Of a stretch of DNA of 64,000 nt, positions 8,384-59,795 are shown one piece after another. Position 1 is the first letter of the stretch. Every line of letters begins with the position of its first letter. The position numbers and the translations under genes are program-made. This DNA is from Spirochaetia bacterium (lineage in GTDB: Bacteria > Spirochaetota > Spirochaetia > SZUA-6 > Bin103): contig CBDAOI010000004.1 of NCBI GenBank assembly GCA_965198005.1, positions 2,336,001 through 2,400,000 on the forward strand. The letters are read 5' to 3'. The notes under the pieces are model-generated. The model was given only the letters and a program-made list of their open reading frames with translations. It did no database searches and was not told the origin of the DNA.

Positions 8384-10173
8384 CTAGTACCCCATTTCTT
8401 TCTTCAGCGCACTATCGATCCAGAGGCGGGCAAACAGGGTATTCGATTCCACCCTGGACAAGGCCCCGTCCAGTTCACCGTTATAGCCGACGAGCCATGG
8501 CTGGGCCAAATAGAATGAAGGGGATTTTGGACCATATATCAGCCAGTGCCGCGACATCGCGTACCTATCTGCCTCGGCAATCAGCCGCTGCTGCTCCTCA
8601 GTCGTACGGGCTCCATTGACGGCGTCAACCCTGACATCCAGCTCAGGCCACTGGGATCCGCCGCGGTTCCACTGGTGATCCGTGTGATAATTGTTTGCCA
8701 TATAGACAGGGTTGAATTGGTTGGCCGCAATACCGCTGTACATGCCTTCCCCAGTACGCGAGAACATCCTCTCGTGATATTCGGCGTAGGTAAGAGCATC
8801 AATCTCGACCTCGACGCCAATTTCCCCCCAGTAGGCGACAGCTATTTCCGAATAGTCCAGGCTTGCCCAAGACCCGTAGTTCAGGGTGGTCTTGAATCTC
8901 GCACCGTCGGCGCCGCGCGGATAGCCAGCCTCGTCGAGCAGCTTTTCGGCAGCTTCCGGGTCATACCGGTAGTATTGCTTGACCTCTTCGTCCCACTCCT
9001 CGAAGGGGACGAAGAACCCGTTCACCCCTACCAGCCCGTGAGGTGTCGGATCTGCAAGTCCCTTCCAGTACGTGGCCGCGACGTTCTCGTTGTCCAGCCC
9101 CATCTGCATGGCGCGGCGCACGTTGATGTCGTTAAAGGGCGGCCTGCGATGGTCAGGAACAAAAGAAGACACCGACCGAAAAAAGACAGTGTGCGCCGTG
9201 ATCTCGGGGTTTGTCTTCCGGAGGCTGTCTATCGAGTCCAGAGAACTGGCCCCCGATCTGAAATCAAGCGTGCCTGAGCGCAGTGCTGCCAGAATCGATC
9301 CTTCCTCGGTCATAATCGCAATCTTCACCTCGTCGACGTAGGGCAGGCGGTTCTCGGGGTACTTTTCGTCATGGCCCCAGTAGTCGGGATTCTTGATATA
9401 GGTCACGCTGCTGTCCTCGACCACGTCCGTCAGCATGAAGGGGCCGGTGCCGACCAGGTTCCTCCAGTCCTGAAGGTCGCCATGCTGCTCGATGACCTCG
9501 GGCGGCAATATGAAAGCAGAGATCTCGACGAGCACAATCCGCATCGTATCGAGGTATGGCTCCTTCAGCTTCATTACAACCGTCGCATCGTCGGTGGCCG
9601 TTATCGATTCCCATGGCACGGCGATGAGATCGGCGGCGTTGGGTGCGGCGCTCGGGCCGGCGTCGGCGAAGCCGCCCATACCCAGCATGCGGTGGAAGTT
9701 GAATACTATGTCGTGGGCAGTGAGCTCCCGACCGTTCATCGGCGCCTTATCATGCCAGTGAACGCCCTTGCGAATGTGGAAGATATAGGTCGTGGTGTCA
9801 GGCTGTTCCCAGCTCTCCGCCAGCCGCCCTATCATGAGAGACGTGGGGAAGTAGAGCGTTTTCAGCTCCGATACGTCTCTATCTACTCCCCAGTTCACGA
9901 TACCGAGCTTCTCGGTGACTCCGCCTCCTGGGTTGGCCACATAGTTGAAATAGGGGTCATGCGTATTGGCTGCGGAACCGGGGCCCCCCAAAACGGTTAG
10001 TGTCCCGCGTACTCCGGCGCGGTCACCATCTTGCCGGTGGCCGGGTCGCGCACCATCTCTTTCTCCATCGCCGCGGCCGGCTCCTCTTCGGCGGCCGGGC
10101 TTGCCCACAGGCCGGTTGCGGTCAGTGCGAGACCACACAGGACGGCGAGTGAGGTGCGAACTACGAAATACAT
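8384..10173 (-). pseudogene. Family-5 SBP with a single frameshift near 10010 (could be a read error)
   Basis: ATG at 10173 with GGAG SD gives MYFVVRTSLAVLCGLALTATGLWA...APEY; one G missing from the YGG codons; rest full length. Confidence 0.8.
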
Positions 10174-10863
10174 CAGATAACTCCTGTTGCTCGAGAGTAC
10201 TGATAATCGACTGCCGGCCCCTCGCCTACTCTCAAGCTATGCCCGCTTCAACGCCGGCGAGCACAAGCGAGGGCGACACCGTGGGTACCCAGGCGGCACG
10301 GCCGCTTGGGGACGAGTCCGTGAGCTAGCCATGGCTAGTCGTAGCCGGTCTTGGGTGCCATCCCATCCTCCTTTGACGTGCGCGCACCACCGGCCTCGGG
10401 ATCGCGCCGGGACCTGCGTCCCAGCGTCCACGCGGCTGGCGAGGCGAGTTGGATTGCCCGGCAACGCCGGGAGCGGAGTTGATGAACGGGTTGATGAGGC
10501 CTGGTGCGCCGGTCTCGGCGCTGAACGGACGCCCTGTAGGCGCCGGGTCGGTTAGCTGTGTTGGTGTTTCTCGGAGGTCCCGTGTACCAACGGTCCCGTG
10601 GGGGGGGGTACAGGGGGGGTAGGACGCGCCGGTTGCGTTGCCGCTAGGAGCTTGTCGGCTTCGCCGACGAGGTCCGAGCGTACCGGTGGGATGGGCCACC
10701 CGCTTCGCGGCCCTTCGGGGCGGCGCCTCGGGCGTCGGTCTGAGGCCACCAAGCGACGATGGGGCGCCAACCGGTGGCAGCGCTGAGTAGTGTCACTACG
10801 TGTCAGTTGCATCCTTTCAAACCCGTCGCGCTTACCATGGCACACCTGTGGCAAATACGTCAA
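10174..10863 (-). promoter_or_regulatory. Complete SBP leader (divergent micro-ORF variant)
   Basis: TTGACG-18-CATGGT, uORF1, C-rich CTACCCCCCCTGTACCCC, CAGCTAACCG, GGAGG + micro-ORF, GCTTGAGAGTA/TACTCTCGAGC stem. Confidence 0.7.
10335..10361 (-). CDS. Putative leader micro-peptide MAPKTGYD
   Basis: AAAGGAGG SD; same position as uORF2 in other leaders; stop lies inside the palindrome CTAGCCATGGCTAG. Confidence 0.45.
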   Translation of the reverse strand: MAPKTGYD

Positions 10864-12718: not shown

Positions 12719-12885
12719 GAGGCATTCTCCTGGACACCGACATCGCCATCGACTACCTGCGTGGAGTCCAGGCAGCGGTCGATTTCGTCAAGCAGCATGA
12801 GAGGGAGATTTCGCTGTCGGCCGTGACGGTTGCCGAGCTCTTCGCAGGTGTGAGGGACGGCGACGAGACGGTCAAGCTGGAGGAC
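12715..12885 (+). pseudogene. VapC/PIN toxin, 3'-truncated
   Basis: LLDTDIAIDYLRG, SAVTVAELFAG, then fused head-on to SBP antisense. Confidence 0.8.
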
Positions 12886-14318
12886 TCTGATCCTTTACCT
12901 GAGTGTTCCACGTCGGCCCGTCAGTAATCACCAACTCAACATCAACGCCAATCGCATCCCAGTAGGCGATAGATATTTCTCCATAGTCAGAAAACTGTGG
13001 AAAACTGTGAGACAATATGGTCTTAAATCTGATGCCGTCCGCGCCGCGCCTGTATCCGGCCTCATCAAGCAACGCTTCTGCCCCCTCCGGGTCATACCTG
13101 TAGTATTGCTTGATTTCTTCGGGCCAGGTTTCAAATGGCGTGCTCCACCCAATTTGATGTTCAGCTATTAACCCTTGAGGTTGCCAGGAAGCAAAACCCT
13201 TAAAGAAAGTTTCGCTAATTGTCTCAAGGTCCAGTGCCATCTGCATTGCTCGGCGCACTCTTATGTCGCTAAAGGGCGGCTCGGTTACGTTAAGGCTGAA
13301 GGCATAATTCGACCGTTGATAAAACGGCCACAACTCGAGGTCGGTTGTCTTCTGGAGGCTCTCAAAGTCGTCGAGAGAATTCATCGACCAATGGGTGCCC
13401 ATACCTCCAAAACCAACCTTGCCCGTGCGCAGCGCCGACAGACGTGTTGCTTCGTCTAATATAAAGAGGCCCTTTAACTCGTCAATATAGGGCAAGCGGT
13501 TCTCCGGGTATTTTTCGTCGTAGCCCCAGTAGTCAGGATTCTTTTTCCAGGTCATAGAGCTGCCGTCGATCCACTCAGTCAGCATATAGGGCCCGGTGCC
13601 GACCACGTTTCTCCAATCCGCAACGTCGCCGTGTTCCTTGATTACCTCGGGGGGGTAATATCCACGTCCAGGCGTCGTCGAGTATGATTTTCAGCGCACT
13701 GAGCATTGGCTGCTTCAGCTTAAAGACAACCGTCCAATCGTCGGTGGCTGTTATCGATTCGAATGTCACGTTGGGGATACTTCCAAAACGGGCGGGACGT
13801 TCGGTGAAGCCGCTGCCCAGAGTTGCGAGACGGTGCCAGTTATACTCTATGTCCTTGGCAGTTAGCTCCCGGCCGTTCATCGGTGCCTTATCATGCCAGT
13901 GAACGCCCTTGCGGATCTTGAACACATAAGTTGTGGCGTCGGGTTGCGACCAGCTTTCCGCCAGCTGCCCTATGAAGAAAGATTCAGGCACAACACCGCC
14001 GGATTTAATGTCATATACGTCCCGATCTATTCCCCAGTCCGCTTGGGCTAGCCTCTCATAAACGCCACTGACGAGGAACCCCGCGTGGTGACCAGTAATC
14101 GACGGGTCCGGTCCCTCGGACTCGGGGCCCCAGAGCAACATGAGTGTCCCGCCGTACTGCGGCGCGGTCACCATCTTGCCCGTGGTGGGGTCGAGCACCA
14201 TTTCCCTCTCGGCGGCGGCTGCCGACTCCTCTTCTGCGCCAGCGGCCCACAGGCCGGTGGCGGTCGGGGCCAGGACCAACGCAACCGCGAAGGTCATTCT
14301 AATGATTGCAATATTCAT
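12886..14318 (-). pseudogene. Family-5 SBP, frameshift in a G7 run (about 13650) and 3'-truncated
   Basis: MNIAIIRMTFAVALVLAPTATGLWA start with GGAG SD; conserved SBP blocks in two frames; ends at WNTQVKDQ. Confidence 0.85.
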
Positions 14319-15010
14319 ACGCTTCTCCGTATGTAGATTTTTTGAGAGTATTGCGGAGCGACTTGGCGCAGCTCCCTGGCTCCTCTCGCGCCTGCCACGC
14401 AGGCGGCCAGTCAGAGTCGAGTGGGTGACACGCGCGGCGTGCGACTCATCGGGCTCACGCCGCGCGCGCGTAGGGTTCTTTGAGCAACATTTGCACCTCC
14501 TTTTTCTGTAGGTTGCGGCAATTGACAGTGAGGGAGCTGCGTCACAACGCCACCCGCGGCGGCGGTCGGCGCAGCAGCAAGTCTGATTGACCGGCGACGC
14601 CGGCGGTGGGTCTTGCCGGCAGTGAGTCGCGGCGCGGATCCGGCTCGGTCGCGGTCGACGATAACGGCGCGGGCGGTCCGCATGCCGGTTCGCCGATGGA
14701 CCGAGCCGGTGAGGAGCAACGCAGCCAGGCGGGATGCATTCGCCGCTCGAATGCAGGCGGAGTTTCGCCACGGGCTGCGAGCTACGGCGGTAGTGAAGGC
14801 GACGGTGGTGTGCGCGGGGTCGCGTACGCGGCGATCAGCCGGAGCGGTTAGTTGTTCGTCGGTTCGAAAAGTGTGTGTGTGGGGGGGGGGGTAGAATGCA
14901 CCGGTTGCGTCACCGCCAGCCGGCCACTGCGCTCACTGTCATCATGGCGTTTCATCATCGATCCGTTGAATCGTGGGTTCAAAGTATAGGGCCCGGCGCA
15001 AGAACGTCAA
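14319..15010 (-). promoter_or_regulatory. Complete SBP leader
   Basis: TTGACG-16-TATACT, MKRHDDSERSGRLAVTQPVHSTPP, poly-C, ACTTTTCGAACCGA..AACAACTAACCGCTCCGGC, uORF2, stems; aligns with 57490-57986. Confidence 0.75.
14455..14490 (-). CDS. Leader micro-peptide MLLKEPYARAA
   Basis: AAGGAGGTGCAA-ATG; homologous to 50381 and 57807. Confidence 0.65.
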   Translation of the reverse strand: MLLKEPYARAA

Positions 15011-15193: not shown

Positions 15194-15325
15194 GGCCGCC
15201 CACGGTCTTTCCCTGGAACTCGATCTGCGCAACCGTGGTGTCCATCGTGAGCGCCGTGCCGTCCGCGAGCACGTACTCATCATGCGACTTGGGCTCAAGA
15301 CCAATCGCTTGCAATGCCGGCGCGG
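15194..15325 (-). pseudogene. Internal fragment of the aspartic protease (copy of about 11055-11186)
   Basis: [19 protein letters not shown]..., near-identical DNA. Confidence 0.85.
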
Positions 15326-15395
15326 CACCGGCCGGCGCGATGCCGGTCGACGTGTGGGGCATGTGATTGCCGCGACCACCCTGCCGGTAAAGTCG

Positions 15396-40904: not shown

Positions 40905-41692
40905 GCGCGACATCCACCGGTTAGGGGCAACGCAACCGGCGTGTCCTACCATTGCCCCCCCCGGAATCCTTTCGCGGCGGGGGTTGACAAATGGTGGGCC
41001 CCCCAGACTGTCTCTTCAGGCCATCGACTGCCGTTCACCGAGGATTGCTGGGGCGATTCGTGGTTGACGTCCTCGGGAGTGGAGGTTATTATAGGGTGGG
41101 ATGCAGTCAATCGCGACTACATCTGGGTCTGGGTATAGCTGTGCCTCACCTGCGGAGGGCTTGAGTGACCTATAACACGTCAACCCTTATGACACTCTGT
41201 TCCCCTGACAGCCGCTCGCCGAGATTTGCTGAAAATCAGCTCGCGGCGCGCTTGCTTAATGGTGAGGAGTGCCCCCCCCCCGGCGCCGGGCAACACACCT
41301 AACTTTTCATTCACCCCAGAAACAGCTAACCGCTCCGGCCGACCGGGCGGAGCACGCGCACCTGCGTGTGCTCCTGCGCACACCCGCGCCTTCGGCATCA
41401 CTCCGTCAACTACCGGGCCAGGCGATCCAGGCGACACCCTGCGCCTGCCGCGTGGCCGTGTGGATGGCGTCGAAATCCGGAACTCTGCGGAACAAGGAGG
41501 TGCAAGCTGATACTCAAAGAACCACACCAGGCGCGCGGCCTGAGCCCCTGAGTTCATGAGGCACACGCCGCGCGCTCCACGATTGGAGATTGCCGTTGCT
41601 GTCTGGCCGCCCGCGTTGCGGGCGCGAGAGTGGCAGCGAAAGGCAACTCGCCGGCAGAACTCTCAAAATCAGAGTATGGAGGAGAGATCATT
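40905..41692 (+). promoter_or_regulatory. SBP leader interrupted by an IS-end-like piece
   Basis: IHRLGATQPACPT..PP (about 40910), C11 (41271-41281), GAAACAGCTAACCGCTCCGGC, GGAGG-CTGATACTCAAAGAACCACAC, GAGAGT/ACTCTC. Confidence 0.7.
41168..41228. repeat. About 60-bp repeat shared with 56361-56421 (probable IS end)
   Basis: ACCTATAACACGTCAAC.CTTATGACACTCTGTTCCCCTGACAGCCGCTCGCCGAGA. Confidence 0.7.
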
Positions 41693-43474
41693 ATGAATCT
41701 TCCAAGAATTGCACACCCCTTCGTGGTTGTGCTCGTGTTCGCCCTGGTCGCGACCGGCATCTGGGCCAGCGGCGAGAGCGACCAGCCGGCCGCGGCGGTG
41801 GAGAAGGAGATGGTGCTCGACCCGTCCACCGGCGAGATGGTGGAGGCGCCGCAGTATGGCGGGAGCGTCACCTATGCCCGGCCCAACCTGGGTGAGCATA
41901 CGGATGTATGGTACATCAGCGGCTGGGCCACCCACTGGATCAGCGAGGTGGTCGAGAAGCTCGTCATCGTAGATTGGGCGCTGGACAGGAAGATAAACAA
42001 CTTGCGGACCTATGACGTGCCCTGGTCTATCTTCCGCGGGGCGTTGGCGGAGAGCTGGGAAACGCCCGACGCTACCACGATCGTCGCCCACATCCGTCAG
42101 GGCGTTCGCTGGCACGACAAGGCACCGATGAACGGTCGGGAGCTGACCGCCAGCGATGTCGAGTTCAACTTTCATCGTCTCTGGGGGCTGGGCAGCGGCT
42201 TCAGCGAAGTCAGCCCAATGTCTGGTGGGGTACACGAAATCGTGGAATCGGTAACGGCCACCGACGCCAGCACGGTTGTCTTCAAGCTGACGAGGCCAGA
42301 CCTCAACGCCCTGCCCAAGATCTTCGACCAGTGGGTTTCGCAGATCTACCCTCCGGAGGTCATCCGGGAACACGGCGACATCAAGGACTGGAGGAACCTG
42401 GTCGGCACGGGCCCCATGGAGCTGACGGACGTGGTCGAAGACGCCTCTCTGAAGTGGACCAGGGTTCCCGACTACTGGGGGTTCGACGAGAAGTTTCCGC
42501 AGAACCGTTTGCCCTACGTCGACGAGATAAACGCCCTCAAAATGCCGGATGAAGCAGCACGTCTGGCGGCCCTGCGCTCGGGCAGGGTTGATCTGCTGGG
42601 GACCGCCGGCGACTCTCAACTGAGGTCAATCGATCAGCTAAAGAGCCTGCGCGAGATCAATCCCGAGATCAATATGTGGGAGTTCGAGTTTCGCTCCGAA
42701 AACGCAACTGCCTTCAACAATGTGAACAAACCGCCCTTTGATGATATCCGGGTGCGTCGGGCCATGCAGATGGCGGTGGATGGCGAGACGATCGCGGAGA
42801 CCTTCTTCAGCGGTATTGGCGATGCGACGCCGCAGGGAACGTTTGCCAATTCCAAGATGGGGGTTGGCACGCCATTCGAGGAGTGGCCCGAAGAGATCAA
42901 ACAGTACTACCGGTACGACCCGCAACGCGCGAAGCAGCTGATGGCTGAGGCGGGCTATCCCGATGGCTTCAAGACCACTCTGTATGCCGGGCAGCGGCGC
43001 GGTTCGAGCTACGAAGAGCTACTCGCCAACTACTGGCGTGAGATTGGCGTGGAAGTCGAGATACGGACGTTCGACTCTACGCAAGGCGTTGCGCTCCGTA
43101 GAGATAATCCAGGAGGATTGATCGCCAATATCGCGGCTATCACATATGACGCAGTCTCTACCCTTAATTGGCACACGTGTGCGAATACCGGGAACCCATT
43201 CGCAGGGTGCGACCCGGAAATTGACGCTCTCTATGAGGCCGCTAACACAGCTTCCACCGTCGAGGAGGCGAATCGGTTGGCCAAAGAAGCGAATCTGCGC
43301 CTCATAGAACTGCACTGGAAGGTCGTTGGTCCAGTTACCCCACAGTTCAACGTCGCCCAGCCGTGGGTCAAGGGCTATAACGGCGAGGTCAGTCTCTCCA
43401 TATCCGGTCATTATTCTACGGTCTTGACCCGTGTCTGGATCGACCAGGATCTGAAGCGGGAGATGGGCTTCTGA
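41693..43474 (+). CDS. Family-5 ABC substrate-binding protein, intact
   Basis: GGAGG SD, signal peptide VATGIWA, conserved SBP blocks. Confidence 0.92.
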   Translation: MNLPRIAHPFVVVLVFALVATGIWASGESDQPAAAVEKEMVLDPSTGEMVEAPQYGGSVTYARPNLGEHTDVWYISGWATHWISEVVEKLVIVDWALDRKINNLRTYDVPWSIFRGALAESWETPDATTIVAHIRQGVRWHDKAPMNGRELTASDVEFNFHRLWGLGSGFSEVSPMSGGVHEIVESVTATDASTVVFKLTRPDLNALPKIFDQWVSQIYPPEVIREHGDIKDWRNLVGTGPMELTDVVEDASLKWTRVPDYWGFDEKFPQNRLPYVDEINALKMPDEAARLAALRSGRVDLLGTAGDSQLRSIDQLKSLREINPEINMWEFEFRSENATAFNNVNKPPFDDIRVRRAMQMAVDGETIAETFFSGIGDATPQGTFANSKMGVGTPFEEWPEEIKQYYRYDPQRAKQLMAEAGYPDGFKTTLYAGQRRGSSYEELLANYWREIGVEVEIRTFDSTQGVALRRDNPGGLIANIAAITYDAVSTLNWHTCANTGNPFAGCDPEIDALYEAANTASTVEEANRLAKEANLRLIELHWKVVGPVTPQFNVAQPWVKGYNGEVSLSISGHYSTVLTRVWIDQDLKREMGF

Positions 43475-47621: not shown

Positions 47622-47762
47622 TTGACGTGTTTGCCACAGGTGTGCCATGGTAAGCGCCACGGGTTTTGAACGGATGCAAATGACACGTGGTTACACCACT
47701 CAGCACTGCCACCGGTTAGCGCCCCAAGACCGACGCCCGAGGCGCCGCCCCGCAGGACCGTA
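47622..47762 (+). promoter_or_regulatory. SBP-leader remnant (promoter plus start of uORF1)
   Basis: Close homolog of 10710-10863; MQMTRGYTTQHCHRLAPQDRRPRRRP. Confidence 0.7.
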
Positions 47763-50319: not shown

Positions 50320-50563
50320 ATCACGCAGTGACCGTGCCGACTCTATCAATTGCCGAAACCTACAGAAAATGGAGGTGCAAATGATACTCAAAGAACCGCA
50401 CGCGCGCGCGGCGTGAGCCCGGGTGAACCCGGTGAGTCACACGCCGCGCGCTTCAGGAAGTTGACTCTATCTGGCTGGTCGCCTGCGTTGCGGGCGCGAG
50501 AGTAGCCAGGAAGCGGCAATCCGCTTCGCAATACTCTCGAAAAATCCACATACGGAGAAACGT
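50320..50563 (+). promoter_or_regulatory. SBP leader, 3' part
   Basis: TCAATTGCCG.AACCTACAGAAAA.GGAGGTGCAA shared with 14491-14525; hairpins; CGAGAGTA/TACTCTCG. Confidence 0.75.
50381..50416 (+). CDS. Leader micro-peptide MILKEPHARAA
   Basis: GGAGGTGCAA-ATG. Confidence 0.65.
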   Translation: MILKEPHARAA

Positions 50564-51737
50564 ATGAACATTGTAAAAATCAGAATGACCTTCGCGATTG
50601 CGTTGGTCCTCGCCCTGACCGCAACCGGCCTCTGGGCCGCCGGCGCAGATGAGGAGCCGGCAGCCGCCGCCGACAAGAAGTATGTAACCGACCCCACAAC
50701 CGGCAAGGTGGTGACTGCGCCAGAGTATGGCGGGACAATAACCTTCGCCCGAAAAGAAGAGCCGGCGGGTCCTGACGCCGTGCTCAGTGGTTTATGGGTG
50801 CTAGACTACGTCGGTGGCGTTCTAGAGAAGCTGGCCATGGCGGACTGGGCAACGCCCAGAGACAAATTTGACTTCGTAGGTTATGCAGTGCCTCTATTCG
50901 CCTTAAAAGGGGCCCTGGCGGAAAGCTGGTCGCAGCCCGACCCACTGACGTATGTCGTCAAAGTCCGCCAGGGCGTTCACTGGCACGATAAGGCACCGAT
51001 GAACGGTCGGGAGCTGACTGCCGATGATATCGTATATAACTATCACCGAATCTTGGGACTCGGCAGCGGGTTCACCGAACCTAGCGAATTTGCCACCACT
51101 AGCTGGGCCGGTGTGCAAGTGGAATCGATAACGGCCACCGACAAATGGACGGTTGTTTTTAAGCTGAAGGAGCTAAACCTCCGTGCGCTGGCTGCTATCC
51201 TCGACGGCCACATCGTCTGGATATACCCCCCCGAGGTAATCAAGGAACACGGGGACGTTACGGATTGGAGGAACCTGGTCGGCACCGGACCCTTTATGCT
51301 GACTGACTGGACCGAGGGCAGCTCTGTCACCTGGGACAAGAACCCTGACTACTGGGGCTACGACGAAAAATACCCGGAGAACCGCCTGCCCTATGTCGAC
51401 CAATTAAGGGCTCTGCTTATGCCCGAGGTGGCAACAATGTTGGCGGCACTGCGCACAGGTAGGGTTGATCGTGGATACGAATTAAGGAGTCTCGACCAGG
51501 TAGAGAGCCTCCAGCGCACTAACCCCGAAATCGTGATATGGCCATTTTCCAATCGGTCGGATAATGCTTTCGGTATGAACGTTCAGTTGCCGCCCTTTGA
51601 CGACATCAGGGTGCGCAAGGCACTGCAGATGGCAATAAACCTCGAGGAAATTAACAATGCCTTCTACAAGGGTTATGCAGATGTGACACCCCCGCCTCTG
51701 GGTTGATAGTGAGCTGAAGGAGGCAATGGGTCGATAG
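50564..51737 (+). pseudogene. Family-5 SBP with an internal deletion near 51692
   Basis: GYADVTP fused out of frame to the terminal RLWVDSELKEAMGR*. Confidence 0.88.
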
Positions 51738-53940: not shown

Positions 53941-54297
53941 TTGACAGTTTGCCGCGGGCGTGCGACCGTCCACCGCTCGCACGGCCCACGGTCAGCGCAG
54001 TGACCGGTTGCCGGTGACGCCGGTGACGTCCGAGCGCTTGACCGCTGTTGCAGCGTCGGCTAGGGTGACCACCGTGGGAGCCTCACCGATGCGGCTGATG
54101 CCTGACGTGCCTGACGACACGCGCTTGACGGCTGTCGCAGCGTCGGCTATGGTGCCTGCCTTGGGGATTGTGAGCGATGCGCATGATGCATGACGATACC
54201 TACCCGCACAGCCACTGGTTAGCCTCGAAGCGGCCGGTGATACGTCTGTCTACCCCCCCCGTACCCCCCTGTACCCTTTAGAGATTAGAAAGTTCGT
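53941..54297 (+). promoter_or_regulatory. SBP-leader remnant with two uORF1-type motifs and the poly-C motif
   Basis: TTGACA; QRSDRLPVT; MMHDDTYPHSHWLA...TPPVPPCTL*; 26-nt match to 5346-5371; internal direct repeat of about 34 bp (54034/54121). Confidence 0.6.
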
Positions 54298-54303
54298 CAG
54301 GGA

Positions 54304-55280
54304 CTGCTAGAATCCCAGGCGGGCAAGGCAGCCTACCGGGAGCAACCTTGAGCCCCCCGCGCCGTAGAGCGCCCGGGGGGGACGTGTGCCCCGGTAGGAG
54401 TGCCGCGATGGATACCCAGTGAGGAGCTTCCCACCGGGCGGGGCCCGGCGTGGTCATGTAAGAAACTGTTGTTTCTTAGGAGTAGTGCCAGGTGGGAAGG
54501 TGCCAGGAGCACCGGAGCACCGGAGCACCAGTACAGGGGTGGAACGACATCGTGGCAGCCGAGCTCCACAATCTCTGGAGGTGACAGGATGTCAACCGAA
54601 CAGACCGAACAGACCGAACAGTGGTTCGTGGGTATCGATTGGGCGACCCAGCAACATCAGATTTGTGTGCTTGAGGATGACGGCGCGGTGGTCGCGGAAC
54701 GGCAGGTGGCCCATAGCGGCGCCGGCATCGCCGACTTGTGCGCATGGTTGCACGAGCTATCCGGCGGGCACCCGGAGCGCGTGCACGCGGGGATCGAGGT
54801 GCCGCATGGCGCGGTGGTCGAGATGCTGCTGGAGCGGGAGGTGCAGGTGTACGCGATCAATCCCAAGCAGCTGGATCGATTTCGTGACCGGTTTACGGTG
54901 GCCGGCGCCAAGGATGACCGGCGCGACGCGCGGGTGTTGGCAGACTCGCTGCGCACCGACCGACGCAGCTTTCGTCAGTTGCAGGTGCAGGCACCGCCGG
55001 TGATCGAGTTGCGGGAATGGTCGCGCCTGACTGCCGAGTTGCAGGAGGAACGCAACGGGCTGATCAATCGCATGCGCGAGCAACTGCGCCGCTACTACCC
55101 GCAGCTGATCGAGCTGGGCGGTGACCTCGGCGCGGGCTGGGTTCTGGAGTTGTGGGAGAAGGCTTCGACGCCGGCGGAGGCAGCGCGGGTCCGGAAGGCG
55201 TCGGTCGCGGCCATCCTGAAGCGCAACCGCATCCGGCGCCATGATGCTGTCAGTGTGCTGCGCATCCTGCGGCTACCGGC
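54304..55280 (+). mobile_element. IS110-family element: left non-coding end plus truncated recombinase (ATG 54589)
   Basis: FVGIDWA, GIE, KDDRRDA (DEDD RuvC-like); C-terminal domain missing; TG.TAGAAT at the left edge. Confidence 0.88.
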
Positions 55281-55712
55281 GGCATCGGCGGCTCGCGCAT
55301 CGCGCGCAGTGCCGTCATCGGCATCAGGGAGAACATGTATCTGCAGGCGGCGGAGGCGTTTGGCGCGAGCGCGACCAGGACCATCTTCCGTCACGTACTG
55401 CCCAACATCATGGCGCCCATGATCATCACCTTCACCGTGACCATTGGCGGCGTCATCATGGCCGAGGCTTCGCTGAGCTTCCTCGGTTTCGGCCTTCCCC
55501 CGAATGTCGCCACCTGGGGAGGCATGCTCAGCAACGACGGGCGCCGCTTCATGGAGTTGGCGCCATGGCTGGCCATCTGGCCGGGCCTCTCCCTGACCAT
55601 CGTGGTTTACAGTCTGAATATGCTCGGTGATGCGCTGCGAGACCTGCTCGATCCCCGGCTGAAGGGCGGTGTGGGTCGTCTGGGTGCCAATAGTCGCGCC
55701 AAGTCGGGCTAG
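55278..55712 (+). pseudogene. oppC 3' half
   Basis: GGIGGSRIARSAVIGIRE...DALRDLLDP. Confidence 0.85.
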
Positions 55713-56480: not shown

Positions 56481-57287
56481 ATGGCCAGTTCGCTGCTCGC
56501 TCCCGCCAAGGTCCACTACCCCTCATCCGACGGCCGGCCGATGGCGGAAAGCGACTTTCAGCGCACGCCGCTGACCTACGCCGTCGACCGGCTGCGATAC
56601 CACTTTCGCAACCGCCGGGACGTGTACGTCTCCGGCAACCTGTTGCTCTACTACCAGGAGGGGAATCCGCGGGCGGTAGTGGCGCCCGACGTGTTCGTGG
56701 TGCGAGGCGTGGCCAACGCCGACCGCTCCAGCTATCGGCTGTGGGAGGAGCGCAAGGTGCCTGACTTCGTGCTGGAGATTACCTCGCGCACGACGCACCG
56801 CGAGGACCAGGGACGCAAGCGCGAGTTGTACCGTGCGCTTGGGGTGCGGGAGTACTGGCAGTACGACCCGACGGGCGACTATCTGGAGCCTCCGCTGCAG
56901 GGATTGGAGTTGCGCGCGGGGGAGTACCGGCGGCTGCCGGGGCGGGAGTTGGCGGACGGCACGCTGGCGCTGGCGAGCGGCGTGCTGGGGCTGGAGTTGC
57001 GGCTGACGGAGCGGGGGCTGCGGTTCCACGATCCGGACACCGGGCAGGACCTGCCGAACCTTGGGGAGACCGACGAGGCGCGGGAGCGCGAGCGGCAGGC
57101 GCGGGAGCGCGAGCAGCAGGCGCGGGAGCGCGAGCAGCAGGCGCGGCAAGCGGCGGAGACGCGCCTCGCGCAGGAAGCGGCAGCCCGCGCAGCCGCGGAA
57201 GCACGGGTAGCGGAGCTGGAGGCGGTGTTGCGCCGGGAGCGCGGTAGCGATTCCGGTCAGGACGGCAATCCAGCGGCACCTCGGTAG
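56481..57287 (+). CDS. Uma2-family endonuclease with a coiled-coil tail
   Basis: YPSSDGRPMAES, VAPDVFV, PDFVLEITS, GVREYW.YDP. Confidence 0.9.
   Translation: MASSLLAPAKVHYPSSDGRPMAESDFQRTPLTYAVDRLRYHFRNRRDVYVSGNLLLYYQEGNPRAVVAPDVFVVRGVANADRSSYRLWEERKVPDFVLEITSRTTHREDQGRKRELYRALGVREYWQYDPTGDYLEPPLQGLELRAGEYRRLPGRELADGTLALASGVLGLELRLTERGLRFHDPDTGQDLPNLGETDEARERERQAREREQQAREREQQARQAAETRLAQEAAARAAAEARVAELEAVLRRERGSDSGQDGNPAAPR
57076..57146. repeat. 21-bp coding tandem repeat (AREREQQ)
   Basis: AGGCGCGGGAGCGCGAGC[G/A]GC x3 plus a partial unit. Confidence 0.88.
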
Positions 57288-57321
57288 GTGGTAGGGTGTG
57301 GTCGGGTAAGCACCGTTCTGG

Positions 57322-57986
57322 TTGACCCGTGTCACGGGTCCGTGCTACGGTCACACTGTAGAGCCATGAGCTGTCAGATTTCTTCGACTTCTTCGACGCA
57401 GGTGATTGCCCCGAGTCGCGGGTCCGTGCTACAGTCGCACGGTAGAGCCATGGACGGTCCCTGTAGCGCCCACAACAAGTTAGCGCTTATGCCTGTACCC
57501 CCCCCCCCCCCCGACTTTTCGAACCGAGAAACAACTAACCGCTCCGGCTGATCGCCCTGTACGCGACCGCGCGCGCGCCGTCGCCTTCACCACCGCCGTA
57601 GCTATCGGTGGCGCCGGCTCGGTCCATCGCCGAACCGGCATGCGGGCCGCTCGCGCCGTTCCCAGCGGCCGCAACGGTCCCGGATCCCCGCCCGCGACCG
57701 ACTGCCAGCAAAACCCACCGCCGACGTTGCCGGTCATTCGGACTCGCTGCTTCGCCGACTACGACCCCGCGTGGCGTTGTGACGTGAGGAAGAAGAGGAG
57801 GTGAAGATGATACTGAAAGAACCGCACCCGCGCGCGGCGTGAGCCCGGGTGAATCCGTTGAGTCACACGCCGCGCGCTTTTAGTGAATTTGACTCAGACT
57901 GGCCGTCCGCGTTGCGGGCGTGAGAGTAGCCAGGGAGCGGCAAGTCGCTCCGCAATACTCTCAAAATCCAAGCAAGGATACTAACG
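57322..57986 (+). promoter_or_regulatory. Complete SBP leader with a duplicated promoter-like unit
   Basis: 47-bp repeats 57322-57368 and 57406-57452; CTGTA-C15; AACAACTAACCGCTCCGGC; uORF2; TGAGAGTA/TACTCTCA. Confidence 0.75.
57807..57842 (+). CDS. Leader micro-peptide MILKEPHPRAA
   Basis: GGAGGTGAAG-ATG. Confidence 0.65.
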   Translation: MILKEPHPRAA

Positions 57987-59795
57987 ATGACGAAAATCCT
58001 ATTTCGAATGACCTTCGCGATTGCGTTGGTCCTGGTCATGGCCGCAACCGGCCTGTGGGCCGGCGGCGCAGAAGAGGCACCGGCAGCCGCTGCCGACAAG
58101 GAGATGGTGACCGATCCCACCACCGGAAAGGTGGTGGTGGCACCACGGTACGGCGGGACAATAACCTACGCCCTATCAACAGACCTTCCGGGACCTGACA
58201 CCGTGCTCACTGGTGGAGCGGCGGCTCACTCCGCCGGTCCCGTTGTAGAGAAGCTGGGCGCCGCGGACTGGGCAGCTCCCAGGGACAAGTTTTCCTTCAA
58301 CATCTATGAACTCAATATTCCTGCTAACACGAAAGGGGTGCTGGCGGAAAGCTGGTCGCAACCCGACCCACTGACGTATATCATCAAAGTCCGCCAGGGC
58401 GTCCATTGGCATGATAAGGCACCGATGAACGGCCGGGAGCTGACTGCCCAGGATGTCGAGTACAACTTTCACCGTATGGTGGGTATAGGTAGCGGTTTCA
58501 CCGAAAAAAGCCCTATGGCTTATAGCTTCCAAGCTGGGGAATTCGAATCGATAACGGCCACCGACCAGTCGACGGTTGTTTTTAAGATGAACAAGCCCCG
58601 CCTCAGTGCGCTGGCTTCTATCCTCGACGACTGGTCTGCCTGGATATATCCCCCCGAGGTGATCAAGGAACACGGGGATGTTTCGGATTGGAGAAACCTG
58701 GTCGGAACCGGACCCATGATGATGACTGACTGGACCAAAGGCAGCTCTCGCACCTATGAGAGGAATCCTGACTACTGGGGATACGACGAGAAATACCCGG
58801 AGAACCGTCTGCCCTATATTGACCGGCTGAGGGGCCTGGTTATGCCCGAAGTCGCGACACGCACGGCTGCACTGCGCACGGGTCAGGTTGATTATGTAGG
58901 TGCGCTCGGCCTAACTTCATTGAGGAATCTCGACCAGGTAGAGAGCCTCCAGCGCACCAACCCCGAAATCGTGATATCGTCGTATACTTTTCGGAATGAT
59001 GGTGCTGTTAGCTTGAACGTTCAGATAGAGTCCTTTGACGACATCAGAGTGCGCAAGGCCATGCAGATGGCAATAAACATCGAAGAAATTAACAATTCCT
59101 ACTTTGGAGGTTTGGGAGATACGACACCTCAGGGGAAGATAAGCAGGTCTTATGCAGGGGTTGTCACCCAATTCGAAGATTGGCCCGAAGATGTCAAGAA
59201 GGTCTTTGATTACGACCCGGAAGGTGCCGAAGCGTTGCTTGATGAGGCCGGATATCCTCGCGGCGCCGACGGTATCAGATTCAAGACCAAGTTCTTGCAT
59301 CTCGAGCGGTACGATTTGAACTATACACAATTGATCACTTCATACTGGAACGAGATTGGCATCGATGTAGTAGACATTGAAGTATTGCCATTTGCTGGCT
59401 TTGCCGCGAAAAGAACTGACAAGGATCACGAAATGATCAGTAGCGAGTTGGCCAACTATGGGGATCCCATAAGCTACATGAGGTCCTATTCGAATCACCC
59501 GAGCAACCCATATGGGGCGGATTCCAATGTCAACGACCCTGTTTATGACGCCATGCTTGAGGCTGCCGAAGCCGCTACCACTATTGAGGAGCAGCACAGG
59601 TTAGTTCGAGAGTTGAATCAATATGGGATTGAGAAGTTCTGGATGATATGGACTCCTAATGGTCCACAATTCAACGCGATCAAACCGTGGATCATGGGTT
59701 TCAACAACGAAAACTGGATGGGTAACGGTCAAGTCCTGGTAGTGTTCACCCGCCTGTGGATTGACCAGGATCTGAAGACGGAAATGGGCTATTAG
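57987..59795 (+). CDS. Family-5 ABC substrate-binding protein, intact
   Basis: Signal peptide AATGLWA, conserved SBP blocks, 602 aa. Confidence 0.92.
   Translation: MTKILFRMTFAIALVLVMAATGLWAGGAEEAPAAAADKEMVTDPTTGKVVVAPRYGGTITYALSTDLPGPDTVLTGGAAAHSAGPVVEKLGAADWAAPRDKFSFNIYELNIPANTKGVLAESWSQPDPLTYIIKVRQGVHWHDKAPMNGRELTAQDVEYNFHRMVGIGSGFTEKSPMAYSFQAGEFESITATDQSTVVFKMNKPRLSALASILDDWSAWIYPPEVIKEHGDVSDWRNLVGTGPMMMTDWTKGSSRTYERNPDYWGYDEKYPENRLPYIDRLRGLVMPEVATRTAALRTGQVDYVGALGLTSLRNLDQVESLQRTNPEIVISSYTFRNDGAVSLNVQIESFDDIRVRKAMQMAINIEEINNSYFGGLGDTTPQGKISRSYAGVVTQFEDWPEDVKKVFDYDPEGAEALLDEAGYPRGADGIRFKTKFLHLERYDLNYTQLITSYWNEIGIDVVDIEVLPFAGFAAKRTDKDHEMISSELANYGDPISYMRSYSNHPSNPYGADSNVNDPVYDAMLEAAEAATTIEEQHRLVRELNQYGIEKFWMIWTPNGPQFNAIKPWIMGFNNENWMGNGQVLVVFTRLWIDQDLKTEMGY

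What the first reader, a model, noticed from the sequence alone, without database searches (positions are those of the whole stretch)
57322..57986. Conserved multi-part leader in front of the paralogous SBP genes: candidate undescribed regulatory system
Seen: the same ordered modules precede the SBP genes at 10174-10863(-), 14319-15010(-), 40905-41692(+) and 57322-57986(+). The 3' modules are at 50320-50563(+), and remnants are at 1-127, 5346-5579, 47622-47762 and 53941-54297. The order is: TTGAC-16/18-(-10) promoter, small ORF1, C-tract, ACTTTTC..GAAACA.CTAACCGCTCCGGC, CCGCGTGG, GGAGG + micro-ORF2, hairpin, GAGAGT stem, RBS, SBP. It is always co-oriented with the cassette. I recognise no T-box, TPP, SAM, cobalamin, lysine or glycine riboswitch consensus in it. 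Inference: a dedicated translation-coupled attenuator or riboswitch that was co-amplified with the transporter family.
Basis: partly seen in the sequence, partly recalled or inferred. Interest (0 to 1): 0.88.

Follow-up and report, generated by a model that had tools for sequence, protein, structure and literature searches.

The report
Frame-gated composite leaders of transporter genes
About four in five of this bacterium's roughly 145 copies of one nutrient-binding transporter gene sit behind the same long composite control region (a variable run of C, a translatable spacer, a tiny upstream gene and a knotted RNA fold), which probably lets each transporter be switched separately.

Summary
The leader at 57322-57986 belongs to a superfamily of composite 5' leaders. 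These lie directly upstream of, and co-oriented with, 118 of 145 SBP_bac_5 loci in this 4.9-Mb genome. I found it only in a subclade of one genus. Rfam has no match.

New here:
- The 3' end is an H-type pseudoknot with compensatory changes.
- The micro-ORF shows codon-periodic variation and an NTG start.
- After the poly-C tract (7-28 C), a conserved block carries stops in two frames. The third frame has no stop up to the micro-ORF in 30 of 32 copies, yet substitutions show no codon-phase bias.
- Paralogues occupy all three frame states.
- An orthologous gene in a sister species carries a different leader type.

Best reading (inferred, about 0.42): poly-C length sets the frame of a leader ORF. 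Ribosomes then either cover a C-rich spacer or leave it bare for Rho.

The scan had already noted these leaders on other DNA of this genome (e1-1235108). No transcription, termination or within-population length data were obtained.

The parts
57322..57351 (+). Promoter-like site 1: TTGACC, 18-nt spacer, TACGGT
   Evidence: Read. The simple sigma-70 scan did not flag it. Leader-less SBP genes of relatives G009 and G010 are preceded by the same TTGACN-17-TAC(G/A)GT pattern about 50-60 nt before the start codon. The function is inferred.
57406..57435 (+). Promoter-like site 2: TTGCCC, 18-nt spacer, TACAGT. It lies in the second copy of a duplicated 50-mer (57319-57368 and 57403-57452).
   Evidence: 86% identity between the two 50-mers. 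The 50-mer gives about 27-31 blastn hits genome-wide, counting both copies in this locus.
57366..57551 (+). Leader ORF1, 61 codons plus stop, with a second in-frame ATG at 57450. It runs through the poly-C tract as poly-proline codons and ends at the TGA of the stop trap.
   Evidence: row C4_2393781: the ATG lies 132 nt before the C tract, the end is TGA_block, 61 codons. Sequence.
57498..57512 (+). Poly-C tract, C15 in this copy
   Evidence: Lengths are 7-28 among paralogous leaders. Flanks at least 90% identical carry C7/C10/C18 and C7/C16.
57513..57551 (+). Conserved block after the C tract. It holds TAA (57536-57538) in one frame and TGA (57549-57551) in a second; the third frame has no stop.
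   Evidence: This is the most widely shared part of the 5' half, with about 50-64 blastn hits. Alignment; frame analysis.
57552..57796 (+). C-rich spacer, kept free of stops in the third frame. In this copy the open frame ends at TGA 57802-57804, 5 nt before the micro-ORF start.
   Evidence: Over 41 copies C is 41% and G 29%, mean length 269 nt. The fold of 57495-57800 is no more stable than shuffles, z = +0.76. Zero stops in the third frame in 30 of 32 copies, against 3 and 2 of 32 in the other forward frames.
57797..57842 (+). SD GGAGG (57797-57801) and the micro-ORF MILKEPHPRAA-stop (57807-57842). The stop TGA lies at 57840-57842.
   Evidence: 126 copies and 33 distinct 18-mers. Codons 3-6 show 25 changes at 4 third positions against 11 at 8 first and second positions. 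The start is NTG with T and G invariant. 17 of 126 copies stop right after Pro. The 16S 3' end reads CCTCC.
57830..57877 (+). P1: a 12-bp G+C hairpin (57830-57841 with 57866-57877) whose 5' arm lies inside the micro-ORF. It carries a small inner hairpin that some copies lack.
   Evidence: helix 1: 97% of cells paired; only one-sided changes, no compensatory change.
57859..57896 (+). Long-range pairing TGAGTCA (57859-57865) with TGACTCA (57890-57896). It forms a pseudoknot with P1, or a hairpin when the P1 5' arm is occupied.
   Evidence: helices 3 and 4: 87-94% paired, and 3 of 7 pairs have a change on both sides; it forms in the minimum-energy fold once the P1 5' arm is left out.
57899..57962 (+). 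H-type pseudoknot domain. S1 is CTGGC (57899-57903) with GCCAG (57929-57933). The P3 hairpin spans 57904-57920. S2/P4 is GAGAGTA (57922-57928) with TACTCTC (57956-57962). The P5 hairpin spans 57934-57951.
   Evidence: The same topology carries compensatory changes in the type-2/3 leaders.
57963..59795 (+). A-rich linker, RBS (AAGGA, 57974-57978) and the SBP_bac_5 gene (ATG 57987; 602 aa)
   Evidence: PF00496, E = 1.6e-64. The RBS region is unpaired in the minimum-energy fold.
50362..50570 (+). Second type-1 3' module in the window, in front of a truncated SBP gene (50564-51706)
   Evidence: R1 231 bits; Pfam.
41487..41693 (+). Divergent type-1 3' module (CTG start codon, variant S1 and P5) in front of the SBP ORF listed at 41630-43474
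   Evidence: R1 124 bits; row shown; Pfam.
14312..14509 (-). Type-1 3' module in front of a frameshifted SBP gene (ORF pieces 13575-14771 and 12872-13606)
   Evidence: R1 178 bits; Pfam. Its 5' part matches 57496-57603 at 85%.
10168..10863 (-). Type-2 leader. The 5' modules are the same (promoter-like site, ORF1, two C tracts, a block with TAA), but the micro-ORF differs (MAPKTGYD-stop) and the pseudoknot is the type-2 form. It precedes the SBP gene whose ORF is listed at 8384-10138.
   Evidence: R2 84 bits at G000:C4:2346168-2346280, which is window 10168-10280.

Best explanation
This is a lineage-specific composite 5' leader that controls expression of individual SBP genes in cis through translation of the leader itself.

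Proposed sequence of events (inferred):
1. Transcription starts at a TTGACN-17/18-TACNGT promoter.
2. A leader ORF starts almost at once and runs into a hypervariable poly-C tract.
3. The length of the tract sets the reading frame. In two frames the ribosome stops at a conserved TAA or TGA just behind the tract. In the third frame it reads on through a C-rich, weakly structured spacer of about 270 nt. It then usually ends at the stop codon of the micro-ORF, inside the 5' arm of a 12-bp GC hairpin.
4. I propose that the bare C-rich spacer loads Rho, so that transcription ends before the SBP gene (OFF or low). A ribosome-covered spacer would let RNA polymerase reach the gene (ON).
5. The internal SD plus NTG start gives a second entry for ribosomes to the same stop codon and hairpin.
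6. The conserved H-type pseudoknot just before the RBS would then act as a structured, Rho-resistant and probably stabilising 5' cap of the SBP message.

Shown by sequence: the modules, their copy number and gene association, the pseudoknot covariation, the codon periodicity of the micro-ORF, the two-frame stop trap, and the open third frame.

Inferred: the promoter and transcript start, Rho action, ON/OFF switching by slippage, and the role of the pseudoknot.
For: 1. Dedicated to one gene family. 118 of 145 SBP loci that keep an N-terminal part carry a leader (76 type 1, 42 type 2/3). 136 of 144 profile hits are co-oriented and directly upstream of an SBP locus (blastn 79 of 83).

2. The micro-ORF is translated. 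In 126 copies, codons 3-6 vary mainly at third positions (25 changes at 4 positions against 11 at 8). The start is ATG, GTG, CTG or TTG with T and G invariant, and it sits 5-8 nt behind GGAGG. The 16S rRNA ends in CCTCC.

3. Stop trap and open frame. In 32 copies with the block, the third frame has no stop between the block and the micro-ORF in 30. The other forward frames are stop-free in 3 and 2 copies, the reverse frames in 1, 4 and 0, and mononucleotide shuffles in 22%. The result held in 7 of 7 loci from other genomes. In all 80 type-1 copies the micro-ORF frame is open for at least 150 nt upstream in 67, against 19 and 30 for the other frames. Spacer lengths differ (139-437 nt) yet are congruent to 1 mod 3 in 22 of 32 copies.

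4. It is translatability that is kept, not a protein. Substitutions per codon phase are 0.176, 0.213 and 0.178.

5. All three frame states occur. Of 26 copies with an ATG-ORF crossing the tract, 12 end at the micro-ORF stop, 4 near its start, 6 at the TAA and 4 at the TGA.

6. The C tract varies. Lengths are 7-28, and flanks at least 90% identical carry C7/C10/C18 and C7/C16.

7. The spacer looks like a Rho loading site. C is 41% against G 29%, and its fold is no better than shuffles, z = +0.76. A rho gene is present.

8. The 3' RNA is structured. Its fold has z = -2.77. In type 2/3, 12 of 23 pairs show compensatory change, 37 cells against 13.4 in shuffles (0 of 500), with slid controls at 4-8 cells. 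In type 1, 21 cells against 8.1 (0 of 500).

9. uORF-dependent Rho attenuators (tnaC, speFL, cruR) and phase variation acting through selective Rho termination (the fim switch, the C. difficile flgB switch) are established (PMC12360218; passages read).

10. Contigs from 4 of 4 RNA libraries laid (3 studies) include leader sequence over 57505-58009. This is consistent with transcription of the leader but does not prove it: the sequence is multi-copy and DNA carry-over is not excluded.
Against: - No transcript start, 3' end, Rho dependence or ribosome occupancy was measured.
- Within-population variation in C-tract length was not tested. Homopolymer lengths in a long-read assembly can be wrong.
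- The three frame states among paralogues could be neutral decay rather than switching. The read-through state is the commonest (16 of 26), which also fits 'read-through is the default and the others are broken'.
- The spacer is not G-poor in absolute terms (29% G).
- The internal start lets ribosomes reach the hairpin whatever the poly-C frame, so the hairpin and pseudoknot are not explained by the frame gate.
- In type-2/3 leaders the micro-ORF frame is open for at least 230 nt upstream in only 16 of 25 copies, against 8 and 9 for the other frames. Some micro-ORFs there are start-stop, or begin with ATA.
- Copies within a genome are related and exchange sequence, so counts of copies overstate independent evidence.
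- The SBP RBS is not sequestered in the predicted folds, so no direct translational switch is visible.
Confidence: 0.42

Rival explanations
1. Constitutive expression cassette. On this reading the leader is a strong promoter plus a 5' stabiliser. Ribosomes loaded on the short upstream ORF, together with the stable pseudoknot, would protect the SBP message from 5' decay and keep Rho off. The cassette would have spread and been homogenised among paralogues by recombination. The poly-C tract would be a hypermutable by-product or a recombination junction with no regulatory role.
For: - The RBS is not sequestered in the predicted folds.
- Leaders are mosaic and are exchanged as cassettes. The G001 ortholog is 93.8% identical from window 58032 onward, shares nothing upstream, and carries a type-2 leader. 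RBS and signal-peptide modules are swapped between otherwise similar leaders. Several unrelated sequence families abut the C tract.
- Some micro-ORFs are start-stop or only 3 codons long, which suits ribosome loading better than sensing.
- The 3' module is more conserved (76-94% among copies) than the SBP coding DNA (65-78%).
Against: - It does not explain the two-frame stop trap directly behind the tract, or why about 270 nt are kept open in exactly the third frame without protein-level constraint.
- It does not explain the amino-acid-level conservation of MILKEP.
Confidence: 0.25
2. Trans-acting sensor. The conserved H-type pseudoknot, with its conserved loop 3, would be the binding site for a small ligand, a global RNA-binding protein or an sRNA. 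That factor would report a general nutritional state and set expression of the whole SBP family. The poly-C tract could likewise be the target of a G-rich sRNA, as the G repeat of the H. pylori tlpB leader is for RepG.
For: - The pseudoknot has compensatory changes in the stems, while the loop after S1 is conserved (GGCAGTGG-like in type 2/3).
- The architecture is the one used by several pseudoknot riboswitches (from my own knowledge).
- There is no Rfam match, so it would be a new class.
- A variable homopolymer in an mRNA leader is known to tune sRNA control (PMC8295292; search listing and start of abstract only).
Against: - More than 100 paralogues that presumably bind different substrates share it, which argues against a substrate-specific ligand.
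- In type 1, loop 3 is replaced by a hairpin (P5).
- The SD is not part of the fold.
- No candidate ligand, protein or sRNA was identified here.
Confidence: 0.15
3. Physiological ribosome-stalling attenuator. Ribosomes would stall on the poly-proline codons of the C tract (dependent on EF-P or prolyl-tRNA), or on the MILKEP nascent peptide at or next to its stop codon. The length of the stall would reshape the hairpin and pseudoknot, or mask the Rho site, as in tnaC, speFL or mgtL/mgtP. Control would be graded and physiological, not stochastic.
For: - Poly-C encodes proline in every frame.
- The micro-ORF peptide is conserved at the amino-acid level, and 17 of 126 copies stop directly after Glu-Pro. 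From my own knowledge, this is a context of slow termination in E. coli.
- The stop lies inside the hairpin's 5' arm, so a waiting ribosome keeps P1 open. Alternative pairings then form in silico.
Against: - Most copies continue for five more codons after Pro.
- Type-2/3 micro-ORFs have other sequences and may be only 1-3 codons long.
- There are no runs of a regulatory codon apart from proline.
Confidence: 0.12
4. The long open frame encodes a real secreted or regulatory protein of about 120-240 aa, and the 'leader' is an ordinary upstream gene.
For: The frame is open, and indel lengths are enriched for multiples of three: 803 of 1563 pairwise runs, which are not independent.
Against: - There is no third-position excess of substitutions (0.176, 0.213, 0.178).
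- The predicted product is low-complexity and rich in Pro, Ala and Arg.
- Length varies from 64 to 154 codons after the block.
- 10 of 26 copies are cut off by the trap.
Confidence: 0.03

Closest known systems
uORF-dependent Rho attenuators (tnaC-tnaAB, speFL-speF, cruR). Source: review PMC12360218, passages read.
   Same: - A short translated upstream ORF sits in a long leader.
- A C-rich stretch can be covered or exposed by a ribosome.
- A rho gene is present.
- The downstream gene is a transport or metabolic gene.
   Different: - No ligand-sensing arrest peptide is evident.
- The proposed input is the reading frame set by a hypervariable poly-C tract, with a two-frame stop trap and a spacer of about 270 nt kept open.
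- More than 100 copies occur per genome, not one.
- An H-type pseudoknot follows.
- Rho dependence is untested.
Simple-sequence-repeat contingency loci (homopolymeric tracts in Neisseria, Haemophilus, Campylobacter and Bordetella genes or promoters). From my own knowledge.
   Same: - A homopolymer of 7 or more nt whose length differs between closely related copies.
- A length change alters the reading frame.
   Different: - The tract lies in a non-coding leader ORF, not in the regulated gene or its promoter.
- The product of the frame is irrelevant.
- The proposed output is polarity on a downstream gene.
- Within-population switching is not shown.
Phase variation through selective Rho-dependent termination (E. 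coli fim switch, C. difficile flgB switch). Source: PMC12360218, passages read.
   Same: A heritable, reversible DNA change that decides whether a Rho site in the leader is usable.
   Different: Those systems use site-specific DNA inversion. Here the proposed change is slippage in a homopolymer acting through translation.
Variable G-repeat in the H. pylori tlpB leader, targeted by the sRNA RepG. Source: PMC8295292, search listing and start of abstract only.
   Same: A length-variable homopolymer inside an mRNA leader that tunes post-transcriptional control.
   Different: That repeat is an sRNA target. No sRNA is known here, and the tract lies inside an ORF followed by a stop trap.
Ribosome-mediated transcription attenuation of the ABC transporter genes bmrCD by the leader peptide BmrB in B. 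subtilis. Source: PMC4191407, search listing and start of abstract only.
   Same: Leader-peptide translation controls an ABC transporter operon.
   Different: That system has a single locus, an intrinsic terminator and antibiotic-induced stalling. Here P1 lacks a U tract in most copies.
H-type pseudoknot riboswitches (SAM-II, preQ1-II, guanidine-III). From my own knowledge; the Rfam models were searched.
   Same: The same 5'-S1-L1-S2-S1'-L3-S2'-3' topology, with covarying stems and a conserved loop 3, placed just before an RBS.
   Different: - No match to any Rfam model.
- The SD is not included in the fold.
- It is shared by more than 100 paralogous transporter genes.
- The ligand is unknown.

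Membership tests
Any Rfam 15 family (riboswitches, leaders, sRNAs) | Score at or above the family's gathering threshold | tested here: not met
   0 matches over the whole window. In 57250-58050, only two chance-level hits at E of 6.7 and 8. In 14 type-2/3 loci, 0 matches at E<=1.
uORF-dependent Rho attenuator (tnaC type) | A translated upstream ORF | tested here: met
   Sequence evidence only: codon-periodic variation, an NTG start, and an SD complementary to the 16S 3' end. No ribosome profiling was done.
uORF-dependent Rho attenuator (tnaC type) | A Rho loading (rut) site that a ribosome can mask | tested here: inconclusive
   The spacer behind the early stops of ORF1 is C-rich (41% C, 29% G) and unstructured (z = +0.76), and a poly-C tract is present. 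It lies upstream of the micro-ORF stop, not downstream. No binding data.
uORF-dependent Rho attenuator (tnaC type) | Termination depends on Rho and responds to a signal | not testable with these tools
   Only the presence of a rho gene was shown.
Simple-sequence contingency locus (phase variation) | A homopolymer long enough to slip, placed so that its length changes a reading frame | tested here: met
   C7-C28 inside a leader ORF. The frame outcomes are 16 read-through, 6 TAA and 4 TGA of 26 copies.
Simple-sequence contingency locus (phase variation) | Length varies between closely related copies or strains | tested here: inconclusive
   Only two clusters with flanks at least 90% identical were found: C7/C10/C18 and C7/C16. 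These are paralogues, not the same locus in different cells.
Simple-sequence contingency locus (phase variation) | Length heterogeneity at one locus within a population, with an ON/OFF phenotype | not tested
   Reads were laid on RNA-library contigs, and these gave next to no cover over the tract.
Classical amino-acid attenuator (trp, his, leu leaders) | Tandem regulatory codons in the leader peptide, plus a terminator hairpin with a U tract | tested here: not met
   MILKEPHARAA has no codon run. At least 5 T in the 8 nt after P1 occur in 12 of 70 copies. No terminator-like site was flagged on the + strand.
H-type pseudoknot riboswitch | A pseudoknot supported by covariation | tested here: met
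   Type 2/3: 12 of 23 pairs have compensatory change, with 0 of 500 shuffles as high. S2 occurs as GAGAGTA/TACTCTC (49 copies), GAGAGTG/CACTCTC (8), GAGAGCA/TGCTCTC (6) and GGGAGTA/TACTCCC (3).
H-type pseudoknot riboswitch | Ligand binding that changes RBS or terminator accessibility | not testable with these tools
   The RBS is unpaired in the predicted folds. No ligand candidate.
MITE or other mobile repeat | Occurs next to unrelated genes and in either orientation | tested here: not met
   136 of 144 profile hits are co-oriented and directly upstream of an SBP locus. The remaining 8 are truncated fragments.

The most novel reading that the evidence does not exclude
This would be a genome-wide combinatorial contingency system of a new kind. 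More than a hundred nutrient-uptake genes would each sit behind their own hypermutable poly-C 'frame gate'. Slippage by one base would decide whether ribosomes stop at a built-in two-frame trap or translate a meaningless but carefully kept open spacer. That in turn would decide whether Rho aborts the transcript. Every cell of this lineage, which is found in sponge and coral-reef metagenomes, would then display a different, heritable but reversible subset of its transporter repertoire. The pseudoknot and micro-ORF would form a second, physiological layer on top.
Probability: 0.25. Interest if true: 0.92.

Novelty: new variant of a known kind. Interest (0 to 1): 0.8.

Why it matters
**If the frame-gate reading holds**
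- It joins two well-studied principles, repeat-mediated phase variation and uORF-controlled Rho termination, in a way that I did not find described in the searches I ran (review passages).
- It does so at a scale of more than 100 loci in one genome. That would make transporter expression in an uncultured symbiont a population-level bet-hedging trait.

**A built-in natural experiment**
- Dozens of paralogous loci in known frame states can be compared in existing metagenome and metatranscriptome data.

**Independent of the mechanism**
- The pseudoknot domain is a new, covariation-supported cis-RNA motif that is absent from Rfam.
- Keeping a frame open without protein-level selection is a clear example of selection for translatability alone.

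Tried and rejected
**Rfam.** Searches at gathering and permissive thresholds gave nothing usable.

**Promoter and terminator scan.** The simple sigma-70 and terminator scan found no promoter, and only one minus-strand terminator-like site.

**P1 as an intrinsic terminator.** Rejected as a general feature, because the U tract is weak in most copies.

**Search for the leader outside the genus.**
- blastn of both 3' modules against 41 relatives.
- Model R1 against 24 genomes of the family.
- Model R2 against 92 genomes of the order.
- Matches came only from genus g1, apart from one marginal 29-nt blastn hit in G015 (E = 7.7e-4).
- Only 101 (R1) or 39 (R2) candidates were scored per genome, so this means 'not found in those searched', not 'absent'.

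**RNA evidence.**
- One search for sequencing runs and one laying of contigs from four RNA libraries.
- The contigs are short, 95-99% alike, and partly come from paralogous leaders. Loose ends at 57796 carry another leader variant.
- The near absence of cover at 57303-57504, against cover from 57505 onward, is not usable as a transcript start. The upstream part is a low-copy variant and the downstream part is shared by about 60 copies.

**Taxonomic naming.** A scan with the neighbouring PEPCK gene returned only distant MAGs of many phyla at 67% identity or less. I leave the organism unnamed.

**The middle region as a protein gene.** Rejected on the codon-phase test.

**Anti-SD idea.** I considered that the P5 3' strand or the S2 3' strand could pair with the SBP SD. 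I dropped it because the RBS sequences differ among copies (AAGGA, GGAG) and the folds leave them free.

**sigma-54 promoter.** A reading of TGGCAGGGCAC upstream of some micro-ORFs as a sigma-54 promoter was rejected by eye, because the spacing does not fit.

**Earlier findings.** A look-up by sequence found nothing.

Full report
**What is there**

The window is G000:C4:2336001-2400000, from a 4.89-Mb genome of 4 contigs and 66% G+C. The stretch 57322-57986 precedes a 602-aa SBP_bac_5 gene (PF00496, E = 1.6e-64). An ABC permease gene follows it.

Read, the leader holds these parts in order:
- Two promoter-like sites: TTGACC-18-TACGGT at 57322-57351 and TTGCCC-18-TACAGT at 57406-57435. They lie in a duplicated 50-mer.
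- An ATG-ORF from 57366, with a second in-frame ATG at 57450.
- A C15 tract at 57498-57512.
- A conserved block at 57513-57551.
- A C-rich spacer.
- GGAGG at 57797-57801.
- A 12-codon micro-ORF at 57807-57842.
- A 12-bp all-G+C hairpin (P1), 57830-57841 with 57866-57877.
- More helices, an A-rich linker, the RBS, and the start codon at 57987.

The simple sigma-70 scan did not flag the promoters. However, SBP genes of two congeners that lack the leader are preceded by the same TTGACN-17-TAC(G/A)GT pattern at a normal distance.

**Copies in the window and in the genome**

The window holds four type-1 3' modules, scored by covariance model R1 at 231, 219, 178 and 124 bits. It also holds one leader of a second type at 10168-10863(-). 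Three of the four claimed remnants are confirmed. The one at 53941-54297 is not.

The window itself is full of decayed cassettes: frameshifted and truncated SBP genes, an IS110 transposase gene and a Uma2-family gene.

Genome-wide counts:
- tblastn with the SBP finds 201 loci, and 145 of them keep an N-terminal part.
- blastn finds 83 copies of the 3' module, and 79 have a co-oriented SBP locus within 600 nt downstream.
- Profile search finds 87 type-1 hits and 57 type-2/3 hits. Of these, 82 and 54 lie directly upstream of a co-oriented SBP locus. The other 8 are truncated fragments.
- Of the 145 loci, 76 carry type 1, 42 carry type 2/3 and 27 carry neither.
- About 13 of the 27 appear to share yet another, unrelated leader (by eye).

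**Not a known RNA family**

Rfam 15 gave no match at gathering thresholds over the window. At permissive thresholds over the leader it gave only chance-level hits. Over 14 type-2/3 loci it gave nothing at E<=1.

**The 3' RNA domain**

The type-1 3' module folds better than shuffles (z = -2.77). Type-1 copies are so alike that covariation is thin. On 52 sequences from 8 genomes, 93% of cells pair. Nine of 49 pairs show a change on both sides, in 21 cells against 8.1 in shuffles (0 of 500).

The decisive material came from SBP genes that seemed to lack the leader. They carry a diverged leader of the same build:
- an SD plus a short ORF;
- a hairpin;
- then 5'-S1-(optional P3 hairpin)-S2-S1'-loop-S2'-3', which is an H-type pseudoknot.

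Evidence for this pseudoknot:
- S2 occurs as GAGAGTA/TACTCTC (49 copies), GAGAGTG/CACTCTC (8), GAGAGCA/TGCTCTC (6) and GGGAGTA/TACTCCC (3), with further variants.
- On 27 type-2/3 copies, 12 of 23 pairs have compensatory changes, in 37 cells against 13.4 in shuffles (0 of 500). Slid controls give 4-8 cells.
- S1 also differs between types while staying complementary: CTGGC/GCCAG in type 1, CTGCC/GGCAG in a divergent copy, and CCCTCGC/GCGAGGG in type 2.

The structure was derived from these sequences, and the copies are related. The controls are therefore indicative, not probabilities.

In the predicted folds the SBP RBS stays unpaired.

**The micro-ORF is translated**

In 126 copies from G000 and its relatives the peptide is M-I-L-K-E-P followed by H-A-R-A-A-stop, or in 17 copies by a stop directly after Pro.

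Among 33 distinct 18-mers:
- Codons 3-6 change 25 times at their 4 third positions and 11 times at their 8 first and second positions.
- All third-position changes that I inspected are synonymous.
- The start codon is ATG (25), GTG (4), CTG (2) or TTG (2), with T and G invariant.
- It lies 5-8 nt behind GGAGG, which matches the CCTCC end of the 16S rRNA.

The stop codon lies in the 5' arm of P1, so a terminating ribosome must hold P1 open. If that arm is left out, the minimum-energy fold forms the TGAGTCA/TGACTCA helix. If that helix is left out as well, the P1 3' arm pairs with P3. These alternatives are computed, not shown.

P1 is not a canonical terminator: at least 5 T in the next 8 nt occur in 12 of 70 copies.

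**The frame result**

The conserved block behind the poly-C tract holds TAA in one frame and TGA in a second. In the 32 G000 copies that match the block:
- The third frame has no stop between the block and the micro-ORF in 30.
- The other two forward frames are stop-free in 3 and 2 copies, and the reverse frames in 1, 4 and 0.
- 22% of mononucleotide shuffles are open.

All 7 loci from other genomes that matched the same pattern behave alike.

The spacer varies from 139 to 437 nt, yet its length keeps it in frame with the micro-ORF in 22 of 32 copies. Over all 80 type-1 copies, the micro-ORF frame is open for at least 150 nt upstream in 67, against 19 and 30 for the other frames. The median is 343 nt, against 82 and 18.

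Substitutions are not fewer at first and second codon positions (0.176, 0.213 and 0.178 per site), and the predicted product is low-complexity. What is kept is the ability to be translated, not a protein.

An ATG-ORF that crosses the tract exists in 26 of the 28 copies that have both a tract and the block. It ends:
- at the micro-ORF stop in 12;
- near the micro-ORF start in 4;
- at the TAA in 6;
- at the TGA in 4.

The window's own copy is in the TGA state.

Tract lengths run from 7 to 28. Flanks at least 90% identical carry C7/C10/C18 and C7/C16.

The spacer has 41% C and 29% G on the sense strand. It folds no better than shuffles (z = +0.76). A rho gene is present.

In type-2/3 leaders the same tendency is weaker. 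The micro-ORF frame is open for at least 230 nt upstream in 16 of 25 copies, against 8 and 9. The micro-ORFs there are M-x-P-K-T-G-Y-D-stop, three-codon ORFs, start-stop pairs, or ORFs that begin with ATA.

**Evolution**

Distribution of the leaders:
- R1 finds them in 8 of the 11 genomes of genus g1: 84 matches in G000, 62 in G005, 43 in G001, 35 in G006, 33 in G003, 5 in G007, 2 in G008 and 1 in G004.
- R1 finds none in G002, G009 or G010, and none in the 13 genomes of the sister genus.
- R2 finds type 2/3 in 7 of 92 genomes of the order, all in genus g1.
- Only 101 or 39 candidates were scored per genome, and several genomes are incomplete. This is 'not found in those searched'.

SBP copy number follows the leaders: at least 150 in G001, 70 in G007, 39 and 34 in the leader-free G009 and G010, and 9 in G011.

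Leaders are exchanged independently of the genes:
- The G001 ortholog of this SBP gene is 93.8% identical from window 58032 onward, which is 45 nt into the coding sequence. It shares nothing upstream.
- It has no R1 match and carries a type-2 leader.
- Otherwise similar leaders join different RBS and signal-peptide modules.
- Several unrelated sequence families abut the C tract.

**How it most likely works**

I commit, at about 0.42, to a frame gate. Poly-C length sets the frame of the leader ORF. Two frames end at the trap and leave the C-rich spacer bare for Rho. The third frame carries ribosomes across the spacer to the stop inside P1. The internal start gives a second route to that stop. 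The pseudoknot insulates and probably stabilises the 5' end of the SBP message.

The sequence features are shown. Rho action, switching and the role of the pseudoknot are inferred.

uORF-controlled Rho attenuation and phase variation through selective Rho termination are both established (PMC12360218; passages read). In the passages and listings I saw, neither uses a homopolymer inside a leader ORF.

Rivals:
- A constitutive stabiliser and expression cassette (0.25).
- A pseudoknot that binds a ligand, protein or sRNA (0.15).
- A physiological stalling attenuator using poly-proline or MILKEP (0.12).
- A real protein gene (0.03).

**Limits**

- No transcript ends, ribosome occupancy or population-level tract lengths were obtained.
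- RNA-library contigs from 4 of 4 runs (3 studies) contain leader sequence over 57505-58009. They are multi-copy, partly from paralogues, and may include DNA.
- Homopolymer lengths in assemblies can be wrong.
- Paralogues are not independent observations.
- I did not establish the organism's taxonomy. The runs that hold the stretch include sponge and coral-reef metagenomes.
- I cannot claim that the system is not in print beyond the three searches named above. Supplementary files were not consulted.

The scan had already flagged such leaders 684 kb upstream in this genome (e1-1235108). That note described about fifty leaders with two tiny upstream genes, an unstable C-rich repeat and an RNA fold, and named tnaC plus a rut site as closest known. 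It gave me the Rho lead.

I tested and extend it in these ways:
- Copy number and gene association.
- Subtypes.
- Pseudoknot covariation.
- Codon periodicity of the micro-ORF.
- The two-frame trap with the open third frame.
- Cassette exchange.
- Phyletic range.

Noticed in passing
window 1-64000: The window is a graveyard of SBP-permease cassettes. It holds a frameshifted SBP gene (12872-13606 plus 13575-14771), a truncated one (50564-51706) and an N-terminally cut one (3824-5281), with paralogous permease genes at 66-96% DNA identity. It also holds an IS110 transposase gene (54400-55422), a Uma2-family gene (56481-57287) and an AAA-ATPase_like/PDDEXK_9 gene (191-1948).
   Followed up: partly
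window 11343-11923 and 15329-15909; also 11055-11193 and 15195-15332: A recent local duplication (98.6% and 96.4% identity) lies next to two leaders. It covers parts of ORFs with aspartyl-protease-like and biotin-carboxylase N-terminal matches.
   Followed up: no
G000: leaders near C2:7568 and C3:799094; leaders near C1:4928 and C4:1735340: Two pairs of leader regions on different contigs are identical, with 0 differences over 1169 nt and over 1186 nt. They may be very recent segmental duplications or redundancy in the assembly (contamination estimate 3.3%).
   Followed up: no
G000, e.g. C1:225649, C1:229437, C4:183331, C4:2246518 (upstream regions shown): A third leader family, unrelated to the others, precedes about 13 SBP genes. 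It has two small hairpins, one of them GCCGGAGTATCCGGC-like, then GAGGAGGAG and the start codon. It has no pseudoknot.
   Followed up: no
L085 (G001), upstream of the ortholog of the window's SBP gene: A tandem repeat with the 8-nt unit CCGACTAC, about 4.5 copies, lies in the distal leader. A similar CGACTAC-rich stretch appears in a G000 leader.
   Followed up: no
window 50546-50566 and many type-1 copies: A small palindromic hairpin, CATACG-GAGAAA-CGTATG, puts the SD in its loop and the SBP start codon in its stem.
   Followed up: no
type-3 leaders of G000, e.g. C2:463451, C3:143561: The stop region of the three-codon micro-ORF (CTGATTC or CTGATGC) is complementary to loop 3 of the pseudoknot (GAATCAG or GCATCAG). 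One pair shows an apparent compensatory change. A ribosome on the micro-ORF would therefore break a third long-range helix.
   Followed up: partly
window 54034-54195: A tandem of about 75 nt at 79% identity lies just upstream of the IS110 transposase gene.
   Followed up: no
G000:C3:1094673-1094891: The rho gene lies in an open frame of 583 aa. That is longer than the E. coli protein, which has about 419 aa by my own recollection, and suggests an N-terminal extension.
   Followed up: no
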